A DNA stretch of 64,000 nt, from the NCBI GenBank assembly GCA_965197585.1, contig OZ240215.1, positions 1,440,001-1,504,000 of the forward strand. Direction: 5' to 3'. The notes under the pieces were generated by a model. The model worked only from the letters and a program-made list of their open reading frames with translations. It ran no database searches and had not been told where the DNA came from. Made by a program: the position numbers and the translations under genes. This stretch comes from Dehalococcoidia bacterium (GTDB taxonomy: Bacteria; Chloroflexota; Dehalococcoidia; Plut-88900). Within the stretch, counting starts at the first letter, position 1. Each line of letters begins with the position of its first letter. This document shows positions 45,946-47,322 of the stretch, piece after piece.

Positions 45946-46116
45946 CCCAACCCCATCGGTAACCCGATCCCATCCCCCGTAGGGGCGATTCGCGAATCGC
46001 CCACAGGCTCAGGACGCTAACCAACCTTCAAACACGCGAACGTCCGACTCACTACCCACCCCACAGCCACCCCACCCCCCATTAACTATGTCATCCCGAG
46101 GCCCCGTAGCAGGAAC

Positions 46117-46280
46117 CTTGTGTGACGCAACGGTGATAGAGTTAGGCTGTCCGGGTGCGGCAGGCCGTAGGAATCATGGTCCTTCAAGACCGAGCCTTAG
46201 CTTGTGCCGCCGCACCCTCTCTCATCTAAGCCCGTACAGTTGCCCGGGTCAACAACCCGTACCTGCAAGAAAGGGATAAC
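46117..46280 (+). ncRNA. Predicted IS110 bridge RNA (left non-coding end; exact boundaries uncertain)
   Basis: Target loop AGGAATC (46169-75) and GCCTTAG (46194-200) inside stem GGGTGCGGC/GCCGCACCC; donor loop ACAGTTGC (46236-43) and TGCAAG (46264-69). Confidence 0.78.
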
Positions 46281-47250
46281 ATGAGTCAAGACTCTGTCAT
46301 GGGTATCGACGTCGGTGGTTAGTTCCTCGACCTTCACGTCCTCCCCCAAAACCAGGCCGCCAGGCTCCCTAACGACCCTCAGGGTATCAGTGAGATCCTT
46401 CAATTGGCCAAGGACCTCAATGTCACCCTCATTGTCATGGAGTCCACCGGTGGCCTCGAGATGCCTCTCGCTTTGGAGTGTGGCCTCCATCAGATACCCA
46501 CTGCCGTTATGAACCCCAGGCAGATCAGGGACTTCGCTCGCTCCACCGGTAGACTAGCCAAGACCGATGCCATCGACGCCCACACCATCCCCCGCTTCGC
46601 CTTCACCCTCAGACCCGACGCACGCCCTCTCCCAGACCCTCAGGCTGCCCATCTCAAGGCCCCCTTCTCCCGCAGAAAGCAGCTCATCGACATGAGAACC
46701 GCCGAGTCCCTTCGCCTCAAGCGCGCCCTCGACCCTCTTCTCCCAAGCCTCCACAAACACATCCAGTTCCTCTCTCAAGAACTGGATGACCTCGACCGCG
46801 AGATAGACGACCTCATTAACTCCAACATCCTCTGGAAGGACAAGCTCCTCCTCCTCAGAAATGTCCCCGGCCTGGGCCCCGTTTCCTCCTTCACCCTCGT
46901 CGGCGCTCTCCCCGAACTCGGCTCCCTCAACCGCAGGCAGATCGCCGCCCTTGTCGGTGTCGCTCCCTTGAACAGGGACAGTGGTCGTCATAGGGGAAGA
47001 CGTTCCATATGGGGCGGTCGGGCCAACATCAGAAGCGCCCTCTACATGGCCACCATGAGCGCCAGAGTCCACAACCCTCCTATCAAGGCCTTCTATGAGC
47101 GGTTGGTCGCAGCCGGTAAGCCCGGTAAGGTGGCCTTAGTCGCCTCCATGCGTAAACTCCTCACCATCCTCAATGCTATGATCAGAGACGGAGCCTCCTG
47201 GAATCACCCCACCCGCACCTCCCCAATACCCCTCCCCCAACACAGTTGCT
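46117..47250 (+). mobile_element. IS110-family element (IS621-like) inserted into a family-A REP
   Basis: Ends CTTGTGTG...ACAGTTGCT share a CT core; removing the element restores GTCATCCCGAGGCCCCGTAGCAGGAACCTAAGGC. Confidence 0.88.
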
Positions 47251-47252
47251 AA
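46281..47252 (+). pseudogene. IS110 DEDD recombinase with a premature TAG at codon 14
   Basis: MSQDSVMGIDVGG*FLDL in frame with [29 protein letters not shown]. Confidence 0.85.
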
Positions 47253-47322
47253 GGCATTCCTCCACCACCCTGCCCCTTCCGTGCAAGATCAGATGCTCGC
47301 CGTCTGCTCCCTCTCCCCACTC

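What the first reader, a model, noticed from the sequence alone, without database searches (positions are those of the whole stretch)
46089..47258. IS110 bridge recombinase whose readable RNA guides point to this genome's family-A REP
Seen: the element runs CT-to-CT (46117-47250), and joining its flanks rebuilds a family-A REP (...AGGAAC-CT-AAGGC). Its left end has a stem (GGGTGCGGC/GCCGCACCC) enclosing AGGAATC, which matches the left half of the REP target, and GCCTTAG, the exact reverse complement of CTAAGGC. A second loop has ACAGTTGC, identical to the element's right end, and TGCAAG, complementary to the left end CTTGTG with two wobble pairs. Established: this is the target-loop/donor-loop layout of IS621 bridge RNAs, and IS621 also targets REPs. 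Inference: a natural bridge system programmed for AGGAATCTAAGGC in a probably Chloroflexota host. The empty REP at 53536 (AGGGATCTAAGGC) is a near-match target.
Basis: partly seen in the sequence, partly recalled or inferred. Interest (0 to 1): 0.85.

Follow-up and report, generated by a model that had tools for sequence, protein, structure and literature searches.

The report
REP-targeting IS110 bridge-RNA insertion sequence
This is an ordinary but clear member of the known IS110 "bridge RNA" jumping genes: its own small RNA spells out both its ends and the repeated hairpin it inserts next to, although this copy's enzyme gene is broken by a stop codon.

Summary
Window 46117-47250 is a 1132-bp IS110-group element bounded by CT cores. 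It carries a DEDD/Tnp recombinase homologous over its full length to IS621 and ISCro4, and a 5' non-coding RNA with two internal loops.

Loop 1 carries AGGAATC (sense of the left flank) and AGCCTTAG (reverse complement of CT+AAGGC). Loop 2 carries ACAGTTGC (the right end) and TGCAAG (pairs with the left end).

- All 7 genomic copies, and 8 copies in two named Dehalococcoidia MAGs, sit at the same CT at the 3' foot of one REP hairpin family (125 left halves found in this genome).
- Across 35 distinct homolog/flank combinations, guides match their own flanks far better than permuted ones (0 of 10,000 permutations reach the observed value).
- Handshake positions also covary, and 16 of 29 RNA pairs show compensatory changes.
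- Sister elements differ mainly in the right target guide. That guide tracks the REP right-flank class: TTAG/CTAG with A-starting flanks, CCCAG with GGGG flanks.

The window copy and one other carry TAG at codon 14; five copies are intact. NCBIfam already names the family "IS110 family RNA-guided transposase". Verdict: real and correctly interpreted, a new member of a known kind, of modest interest.

The parts
46090..46118 (+). Left half of the target REP hairpin (degenerate copy, GTCATCCC...CAGGAAC) ending in the left CT core (46117-46118)
   Evidence: sequence; compared with 125 REP left halves and with the flanks of the other 6 copies.
46119..46280 (+). Left non-coding end (LE), 162 nt, encoding the bridge RNA. 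A possible -10 box TAGAGT lies at 46137-46142.
   Evidence: The promoter is inference only: none is called in the integrated state, and the in-silico circle junction gives TTGCTT-17-TAGAGT, 7 of 12 consensus matches.
46152..46218 (+). Target-binding loop module. Outer stem 46152-46166 / 46205-46218; left target guide TAGGAATCA 46168-46176; inner hairpin GGTC...GACC 46178-46191; right target guide AGCCTTAG 46193-46200; handshake positions CT 46201-46202.
   Evidence: Alignment A1 and its consensus structure; guide/flank test; handshake count.
46231..46275 (+). Donor-binding loop module. Closing stem CCC 46231-46233 / GGG 46273-46275; left donor guide ACAGTTGC 46236-46243; inner hairpin GGGT...ACCC 46246-46258; right donor guide TGCAAG 46264-46269; handshake positions AA 46270-46271.
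   Evidence: The guide equals the right end 47242-47249. TGCAAG pairs with CTTGTG (46117-46122) by 4 Watson-Crick and 2 G.U pairs.
46281..47252 (+). Recombinase ORF (323 codons) with a nonsense TAG at codon 14 (46320-46322; CAG in 5 of the 7 copies). Catalytic-type residues by alignment to IS621: D10, E54, D96, D99, S234. The stop TAA (47250-47252) is made of the core T plus two target bases.
   Evidence: IS621 catalytic residues were read in Hiraizumi 2024 (passages).
47242..47250 (+). Right end: left donor half ACAGTTG plus the right CT core (47249-47250). It lies inside the last codons of the ORF, so the right non-coding end has length 0.
   Evidence: distance from right end to ORF end = 0.
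47251..47258 (+). Right half of the target (AAGGCATT), the right-flank class 'AAGG' of the REP family

Best explanation
Window 46117-47250 is a compact (1132 bp) insertion sequence of the IS110 group, working like IS621.

**Proposed mechanism (by homology, not observed).** The element is expected to leave as a circle by recombination between its two CT cores. From the left end it makes a roughly 130-nt bridge RNA.
- Loop 1 of this RNA pairs with the target. [quoted passage not shown] - Loop 2 pairs with the joined element ends. ACAGUUGC pairs with the right end, and UGCAAG with CT+TGTG of the left end.
- Two-base 'handshake' positions after each right guide pair with the other duplex after top-strand exchange.
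- A DEDD/Ser recombinase tetramer then inserts the circle at the CT, leaving CT on both sides.

**Shown here:** the anatomy, the homology, the site specificity (15 of 15 insertions), the covariation of guides and handshake positions with flanks, and the covariation within the RNA helices.

**Inferred:** circle formation, a promoter built across the junction, the RNA ends, and catalysis.

**This copy.** It has a TAG at codon 14, upstream of 4 of the 5 catalytic residues. It cannot supply recombinase and could move only if one of the five intact paralogs acts in trans. Its RNA and both ends look intact.
For: **Protein**
- PF01548 (E 2e-19) plus PF02371 (E 3e-16).
- The intact paralog scores 226.9 bits against NF033542 'IS110 family RNA-guided transposase', cutoff 140.
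- Full-length phmmer alignments to the IS621 (8wt6) and ISCro4 (9t56) recombinases keep the GID, E, DxxD and SG motifs.

**Site specificity**
- All 7 of 7 full copies in the genome follow ...CGAGG[AG]A[TC]CT of one REP family.
- All 8 of 8 copies in two named Dehalococcoidia MAGs do the same.
- The REP has 125 left halves. In 103 of them the two 5-bp arms are fully paired, including the compensated variant ATCCC/GGGAT.

**Right guide tracks flank class**
- Guides ending TTAG or CTAG sit with A-starting right flanks in 8 of 8 cases.
- Guides ending CCCAG sit with GGGG flanks in 7 of 7 cases.
- None of the 36 empty GG-class REPs in this genome is occupied.

**Homologs**
- 53 of 401 phylum genomes have a match at E<=1e-40. 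The count includes G000 and the unpublished G145.
- In 35 distinct guide/flank combinations, cognate pairing is 5.63 against 3.91 (left) and 4.89 against 2.46 (right). None of 10,000 permutations reaches the observed sums.
- The loop-1 handshake position pairs with donor position 7 in 30 of 30 cases. The loop-2 handshake position pairs with target position 7 in 27 of 30, with G-C, A-T and C-G variants.

**RNA structure**
- 29 consensus pairs, 16 of them with changes on both sides.
- 95.5% of cells are paired, against 85.3 +/- 0.6 in shuffles (0 of 500 reach it) and 37.5-47.7% when partners are slid.
- A model built from these RNAs finds all 7 copies, plus two other IS110 elements of the genome. 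One of those was not in the training set (107 bits).

**Layout and REP targeting of IS621** were read in Durrant 2024 (passages), and the handshake guides in Hiraizumi 2024 (passages).

**Recent spread.** Three copies are 100% identical. Their flanks differ apart from shared repeat sequence.
Against: - No activity is shown. No circle junction was seen among the contigs laid.
- The one RNA-library contig (X18, 1088 nt, 42 differences) starts in a flanking REP arm, so it is an integrated copy. It may also be DNA.
- No sigma-70-like promoter is called in the integrated state. The junction promoter is weak: 7 of 12 matches. Among 31 distinct homolog junctions only 5 score 8 or more, against 3 in the integrated state.
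- The single-sequence fold is not exceptional (z = -1.16).
- The window copy has the nonsense codon. Its own site shows a wobble with the left guide and a mismatch with the loop-2 handshake base; it is one of the 3 exceptions.
- Some homologs match their flanks poorly: L019 3/8 and 3/6, L033 and L042 2/8 on the left, L032 3/6 on the right. The cause may be decay or ends mis-set by my regular expressions.
- In the homolog set the CT at both ends was required by my parsing, so it is not an independent result there.
- Related copies share guides and sites by descent, so the permutation figures overstate independence.
Confidence: 0.9

Rival explanations
1. The window copy is an immobile fossil. 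The family works as described, but this copy (nonsense codon, degenerate REP, imperfect match to its own site) no longer moves, not even with help in trans.
For: TAG at codon 14. Its REP half is degenerate and its site mismatches the loop-2 handshake base. The only other TAG copy (L003) got the allele through a 100%-identical conversion tract of about 700 bp, not through transposition of a TAG copy.
Against: Both ends, all four guides and the RNA helices are intact, and the copy is 99% identical to the intact copy L002. Five intact paralogs with the same donor sequence are present. In run X1 one contig (depth 4.4, 30 letters on the shorter side) skips exactly 1132 bases at this site, and the right flank is unique in the genome. 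That is a weak hint that the insertion is polymorphic.
Confidence: 0.35
2. The left-end RNA structure is only a cis-regulatory leader or a partner of an antisense small RNA (like sX15/asX7 of Xanthomonas or the small RNAs proposed for ISPpu9). Target choice would then be made by the protein alone.
For: The only Rfam match is a sub-threshold hit to sX15 on the opposite strand (35 bits, gathering score 55). sX15 has an antisense partner and 10 copies in a Stenotrophomonas genome (Schmidtke 2011, passages). No transcript ends are mapped here.
Against: Loop nucleotides covary with the flanking DNA and with the element ends, including the handshake positions. A purely regulatory leader does not predict this. 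Closely related elements differ in the guide words while the scaffold stays fixed.
Confidence: 0.03
3. The TAG at codon 14 is read through or recoded, so the window copy is autonomous.
For: Two copies carry the same TAG.
Against: The two TAG copies share a conversion tract that is 100% identical from about element position 100 to 800, which explains the sharing. Five copies have CAG there. In the runs laid, C dominates at 46320 (326 of 352.6 depth in X1). In this genome the recombinase ORFs themselves end at TAG or TAA.
Confidence: 0.03

Closest known systems
IS621 of Escherichia coli (IS110 group; bridge RNA, Durrant 2024; structures 8wt6-8wt9)
   Same: - DEDD plus Tnp recombinase, aligned end to end (E 1e-34).
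- RNA encoded in the left end, with a target loop and a donor loop.
- 5' guides in the sense of the left halves, 3' guides complementary to the right halves.
- CT core and handshake positions.
- A very similar donor word (ACAG...-CT-TGT...).
- The target is the last bases of the 3' arm of a REP hairpin plus CT plus 2 or more bases. The IS621 target ATCAGGCCTAC and the REP queries ending ...TTATCAGGCCTACG were read.
   Different: - Roughly one third of residues are identical in the printed alignment (not computed).
- The host is a sponge-associated Dehalococcoidia rather than an enterobacterium.
- The REP family is different.
- The T of the core is not matched by either 5' guide (A/G and C stand there).
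- There is no room for a long 5' stem-loop: the target loop stem starts 35 nt into the element.
- The right non-coding end has length 0, so the donor half lies in the last codons and the stop codon comes from the target.
- The native right target guide pairs over 7-8 nt.
ISCro4 recombinase (PDB 9t56)
   Same: Best solved-structure match (E 4e-37, residues 6-316 of 323).
   Different: Only the protein was compared. I did not read anything about its RNA or its targets.
ISPpu10 of Pseudomonas putida (preprint 10.64898/2026.03.19.712850; abstract read)
   Same: An IS110 element whose insertions all lie in copies of one conserved intergenic repeat with a stem-loop 5' of the paired target.
   Different: In that work the stem-loop was shown by experiment to add specificity. 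Here the hairpin arm is itself the left target, and any role for the hairpin structure is untested.
IS1111 group / seekRNA elements
   Same: Same recombinase family and the same RNA-guided logic (Durrant 2024, passage).
   Different: Those carry the RNA in a long right end with long sub-terminal inverted repeats. Here the right end has length 0 and the RNA lies in the left end.

Membership tests
IS110 family, IS110 group (bridge recombinase plus bridge RNA) | [quoted passage not shown] | tested here: met
   70.1 bits (cutoff 29) and 60.2 bits (cutoff 21.3). NF033542 at 226.9 bits (cutoff 140), scored on the intact paralog.
IS110 family, IS110 group (bridge recombinase plus bridge RNA) | Catalytic D, E, D, D and Ser present | tested here: met
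   The alignment to IS621 places D10, E54, D96, D99 and S234 (positions) opposite the IS621 motifs. The IS621 residues D11, E60, D102, D105 and S241 were read. In the window copy a TAG at codon 14 cuts the protein.
IS110 family, IS110 group (bridge recombinase plus bridge RNA) | Long left end, short right end, with a left-end RNA of two stem / internal loop / hairpin modules | tested here: met
   Left end 162 nt, right end 0 nt. Consensus structure of 34 left ends: 29 pairs, 16 with compensatory changes, 95.5% paired against 85.3% in shuffles.
IS110 family, IS110 group (bridge recombinase plus bridge RNA) | Loop 1 guides match the insertion site (left guide in sense, right guide antisense) and covary with it | tested here: met
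   none of 10,000 permutations reaches the observed value, for either guide. Within the clade the right guide follows the REP flank class in 15 of 15 insertions.
IS110 family, IS110 group (bridge recombinase plus bridge RNA) | Loop 2 guides match the element's own right and left ends | tested here: met
   ACAGTTGC equals 47242-47249, and TGCAAG pairs with 46117-46122. In one search a right end matching the left donor guide (at most 1 substitution) was found downstream of the ORF in 43 of the 44 parsed elements; L022 had none.
IS110 family, IS110 group (bridge recombinase plus bridge RNA) | Handshake guide positions complementary to the other duplex | tested here: met
   30 of 30 and 27 of 30. 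They pair with the cognate duplex in only 2 of 30 and 6 of 30.
IS110 family, IS110 group (bridge recombinase plus bridge RNA) | CT core at both junctions, no terminal inverted repeats, scarless empty site | tested here: met
   Read directly for the 7 own and the 8 sister copies. Empty REPs with the same sequence exist. For the more distant homologs the CT was imposed by my parsing.
IS110 family, IS110 group (bridge recombinase plus bridge RNA) | Circular intermediate with a promoter rebuilt across the junction | tested here: inconclusive
   No junction was seen in the contigs of 4 runs. Only a weak consensus, TTGCTT-17-TAGAGT, appears in silico.
IS110 family, IS110 group (bridge recombinase plus bridge RNA) | RNA-dependent recombination activity | not testable with these tools
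   Needs an assay.
REP (repetitive extragenic palindromic) element | Short palindromic unit in many copies, hairpin kept by compensatory variants | tested here: met
   125 left halves. In 103 of 125 the arms are fully paired. The two main forms are ATTCC/GGAAT (70) and ATCCC/GGGAT (32).
REP (repetitive extragenic palindromic) element | Extragenic position; association with a RAYT transposase | not tested
   Only the window's copy was seen to lie between ORFs. No RAYT search was made.
Rfam RF02234 sX15 | Score at or above the gathering threshold on the RNA's strand | tested here: not met
   35 bits against 55, and on the opposite strand.
IS1111 group (seekRNA in the right end) | Long right end carrying the RNA, and long sub-terminal inverted repeats | tested here: not met
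   The right end has length 0 and the RNA lies in the left end.

The most novel reading that the evidence does not exclude
Within one genus of sponge-associated Dehalococcoidia, a single young IS110 lineage keeps its left guide fixed on the conserved 3' arm of a REP hairpin. It re-programs only 2-4 bases of its right guide (TTAG, CTAG, CCCAG) to move between right-flank classes of that REP family.

Guide positions change faster than the rest of the element. Between the two 99%-identical copies there are 4 differences in the 164-nt left end, 2 of them in guide positions, against 7 differences in 970 nt of coding sequence.

If so, this is a natural record of bridge-RNA retargeting in progress. 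Copies with a broken recombinase but intact RNA could also ride on intact paralogs.
Probability: 0.5. Interest if true: 0.45.

Novelty: new member of a known kind. Interest (0 to 1): 0.3.

Why it matters
This adds no new mechanism. Durrant 2024 already predicted thousands of IS110 bridge RNAs, and NCBI's family model already names the protein an RNA-guided transposase.

Its value is as a clean natural example:
- It is very compact: 1.1 kb, a 315-323 aa recombinase, an RNA of about 130 nt, and no right non-coding end.
- It comes from an uncultured, GC-rich marine lineage.
- 15 insertions in three genomes show guide-by-guide agreement with their sites.
- Closely related copies differ almost only in the right target guide.

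That set could serve to study how guides evolve, and as further orthologs for bridge-recombinase engineering.

Tried and rejected
- **Rfam.** No bridge-RNA family matched on the + strand. There was only a sub-threshold sX15 hit on the - strand.
- **Single-sequence folding.** The z-score is not significant, so energy was not used as evidence.
- **Promoter scan of the integrated locus.** Nothing found. The in-silico junction scan gave only weak matches, and several rows were mis-anchored (for example L004, L015, L027, L028). The junction promoter therefore stays an inference.
- **Search for more copies of this clade in JGI metagenome contigs.** Two exact-pattern scans gave 0 matches.
- **Search for an orthologous empty site in same-genus genomes.** G409 (94% identity) and G404 (80%) keep the right-hand gene, but a different gene lies to its left and no REP is there. 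No 'before' state could be read.
- **Read laying.** All four runs are kept as contigs, so transcript ends, strand and level cannot be told.
  - No circle junction was seen.
  - One contig in X1 skips exactly 1132 bases at the site. With depth 4.4 and 30 letters on the shorter side, I treat it as a weak hint only.
  - Joints 46580/46581->47146 and 47054->47141 have short sides (20-28 letters) and lie in conserved motifs. I did not interpret them.
- **TAG spread by transposition of a broken copy.** I considered this and rejected it in favour of gene conversion.
- **Target supplies the stop codon as a constraint on target choice.** I considered this and rejected it. In the sister MAG the ORF simply runs on into GGGG flanks.
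- **Supplements were closed.** The supplementary data of Durrant 2024 may already list this ortholog; I could not check.
- **Literature.** Terms were IS110, Dehalococcoidia, bridge RNA, sponge and Chloroflexota, with at least 3 of 5 required. None of the 10 papers listed holds 'IS110' or 'bridge RNA'. I make no wider claim that this is not in print.
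Full report
**What is there**

The sequence shows an element bounded by CT at 46117-46118 and at 47249-47250. It begins CT-TGTGTGAC and ends ACAGTTG-CT.

Between 46281 and 47252 lies an ORF of 323 codons with an in-frame TAG at codon 14 (46320-46322).
- The protein has the two IS110 domains: PF01548 at 70.1 bits and PF02371 at 60.2 bits.
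- It aligns end to end with the solved recombinases of ISCro4 (9t56, E 4e-37) and IS621 (8wt6, E 1e-34), keeping the GID, E, DxxD and SG motifs. The catalytic residues of IS621 were read.
- An intact paralog scores 226.9 bits, against a cutoff of 140, on NCBIfam NF033542. NCBI already calls that family 'IS110 family RNA-guided transposase'.

- The stem GGGTGCGGC/GCCGCACCC encloses AGGAATC (46169-46175) and GCCTTAG (46194-46200).
- The second module holds ACAGTTGC (46236-46243, identical to the right end) and TGCAAG (46264-46269). TGCAAG pairs with CTTGTG by four Watson-Crick and two G.U pairs.
- Durrant 2024 (passages) describes exactly this layout for IS621. [quoted passage not shown] The CT core is included in both.
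- Durrant 2024 also gives REPs as the IS621 target.

**Other copies**

The genome (one contig of 3.43 Mb) has 7 full copies.
- Besides the window copy there is one at 99%, one at 95% and four at 88% identity.
- The other 5 places listed are two right-end fragments of those same copies and three weak matches to two other IS110 elements.
- Aligned with their flanks, all 7 follow ...CCGCGAGG[AG]A[TC]-CT and are followed by AAGGC, AAAGC or AGGAC.

The left flank is the 3' arm of a hairpin repeat.
- I found 125 left halves within 5 substitutions of a 27-mer.
- In 103 of the 125 the two 5-bp arms are fully paired. The two main forms are ATTCC/GGAAT (70) and the compensated ATCCC/GGGAT (32).
- The REP half beside the window copy is a degenerate member with a 2-nt insertion and was not among the 125.

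**Sister genomes**

A scan of species-representative genomes with the intact protein found the same clade only in two records titled 'MAG: Dehalococcoidia bacterium'. OY764147.1 has 7 copies at 82-83% amino-acid identity. OZ244800.1 has 1 copy at 92%.

Their flanks show the same REP family and the same insertion point in 8 of 8 cases.
- In OY764147.1 the right target guide reads A[GT]CCCCAG, and all 7 copies are followed by GGGG[TC].
- In the window's genome the guides read AGCCTTAG, AGTCTTAG or AGCTCTAG, and all 7 copies are followed by A-starting flanks.
- None of the 36 empty GG-class REPs in the window's genome is occupied, whereas 6 of 73 AA/AG-class sites are. The window copy makes a seventh.
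- So guide type and flank class agree in 15 of 15 insertions. By hand, 1/C(15,7) = 1.6e-4, but this overstates the case because copies within a genome share ancestry.

Dehalococcoidia is a class of Chloroflexota.

Within the order, this clade is found in 3 of 12 genomes at E<=1e-120 (3 of 9 in the genus), so its distribution is patchy.

**Wider covariation**

At E<=1e-40 the protein has matches in 53 of 401 genomes sampled from the phylum. That count includes G000 and the unpublished G145. The best match outside the own genome is 54% identical.

I parsed guides, ends and flanks in 44 elements, leaving out L025 of G145. This gave 35 distinct combinations with both flanks.
- Cognate pairs average 5.63 paired positions on the left and 4.89 of 6 on the right. 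Non-cognate pairs average 3.91 and 2.46.
- The observed sums of 197 and 171 compare with 142.5 +/- 6.9 and 94.4 +/- 7.7 in 10,000 permutations. None reached the observed value.

The handshake positions described by Hiraizumi 2024 (passages) behave as that model predicts.
- The base after the right target guide pairs with donor position 7 in 30 of 30 cases: C with G, and A with T in the subfamily whose right end reads ...TTT-CT.
- The base after the right donor guide pairs with target position 7 in 27 of 30 cases, as G-C, A-T and C-G.
- The window copy is one of the three exceptions, because its site reads GGAAC rather than GGAAT.

**RNA structure**

An alignment of 34 left ends gives a consensus of 29 pairs in two modules.
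- 16 pairs have changes on both sides.
- 95.5% of cells are paired, against 85.3 +/- 0.6 in shuffles (0 of 500 reach it) and 37.5-47.7% when partners are slid by 1-3 columns.
- A covariance model built from this alignment finds 9 places in the genome: the 7 copies and two other IS110 elements. One of these was not in the training set and scores 107 bits. There are no orphan RNAs.

The fold of the single sequence is not unusually stable (z = -1.16).

**State of the copies**

- Five copies have an open frame. The window copy and L003 carry TAG where the others have CAG.
- L003 is a mosaic. Element positions of about 100-800 are 100% identical to the window copy, and both ends resemble the 88% subfamily. 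The shared TAG is therefore best explained by gene conversion.
- Three copies are 100% identical to each other although their flanks differ, which points to recent spread.
- The window copy and L002 differ at 11 positions. Four lie in the 164-nt left end, and two of those are in guide positions (46176 and 46195).
- The change at 46195 (C against T in the right guide) goes with G against A in the two sites.

**Sequencing runs**

The stretch is held by 23 listed runs, one of them labelled sponge metagenome. All are kept as contigs. Four runs were laid.
- C dominates at 46320 (326 of 352.6 depth in X1).
- One RNA-library contig (X18, 1088 nt) covers 46111-47175 with 42 differences. It starts in a REP arm, so it is an integrated paralog, and it may be DNA.
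- One contig in X1 skips exactly 1132 bases at the site (depth 4.4, 30 letters on the shorter side). The right flank is unique in the genome. I take this as a weak hint of an empty-site allele.
- No circle junction was seen.

**Mechanism and verdict**

The anatomy, the homology and three layers of covariation fit the IS621 model without any change. Circle formation, a junction promoter (TTGCTT-17-TAGAGT in silico, 7 of 12 matches) and catalysis are inferred, not shown.

Points that differ from IS621:
- The right non-coding end has length 0, so the donor half lies in the last codons and the stop codon comes from the target.
- There is no room for a long 5' stem-loop.
- The T of the core is not matched by the two 5' guides.
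- The native right target guide is longer.

The finding is real and was read correctly. It is a new member of a well-described kind, so its interest is modest.

Noticed in passing
window 46144-46292, minus strand: The only Rfam hit over the bridge RNA is a sub-threshold one to sX15 (RF02234, 35 bits against 55), on the opposite strand. sX15 of Xanthomonas has an antisense partner (asX7) and 10 homologs in a Stenotrophomonas chromosome (Schmidtke 2011, passages). The Rfam family may therefore be the reverse complement of an IS110 bridge RNA.
   Followed up: partly
G000:C1:1850409-1850551 (+) and G000:C1:2222764-2222906 (-): Two further IS110-group elements, distantly related to this one (the first is 50% identical in protein), each with its own bridge RNA (110.8 and 107 bits with model R1). 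The first has guides AATCATCCT / TTGCTCAG and sits in ...CGCTCACC-CT-GAGCAG. That looks like a different palindromic repeat, also seen beside copies L005 and L007.
   Followed up: partly
whole genome (G000): REP orientation follows the replichores defined by cumulative GC skew (maximum at 1.06 Mb, minimum at 2.65 Mb). Between these points there are 68 on + and 3 on -; outside them 14 on + and 40 on -. All 7 IS copies share the local REP orientation.
   Followed up: partly
L003 = G000:C1:2796203-2797300: A mosaic copy. Both ends resemble the 88% subfamily, while the middle 700 bp is 100% identical to the window copy, including the TAG. This indicates gene conversion between paralogs.
   Followed up: yes
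alignment A1, columns 105-108 with 149-152: The left donor guide (TTGC) and the right donor guide (GCAA) are complementary to each other in 97% of cells. In the subfamily with TTAC/GTAA (5 sequences) the guide base at position 7 follows this pairing, not the right end (which reads ...TTT-CT). This may be an intramolecular helix that closes the empty donor loop.
   Followed up: no
window 45922-46043: The region with the perfect palindrome GGGCGATTCGCGAATCGCCC has summed contig depths of 238-2382 in the three DNA runs, against about 26-69 in the neighbouring left bins. It is a very abundant repeat in these metagenomes. One contig in X1 skips 126 bases here, and X4 has 23 other letters in its place.
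   Followed up: no
window 47250-47252 and loci L043-L050: The recombinase ORF has no stop codon of its own. In this genome TAA or TAG is formed by the core T plus the first two target bases. In the sister MAG the ORF runs on into the GGGG flanks, giving C-termini that depend on the site.
   Followed up: yes
L002 2723-3706 (+): A 327-aa ORF that looks like an integrase-type transposase of another IS family lies about 100 bp upstream of copy L002. That name is my impression from its sequence; it was not scanned.
   Followed up: no
window 46580-47146 and 47054-47141: Contigs in DNA and RNA-library runs join across 565 and 86 bases inside the ORF, with short sides (20-28 letters). They may be deleted derivatives, or chance joins at conserved motifs of other IS110 elements.
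   Followed up: no
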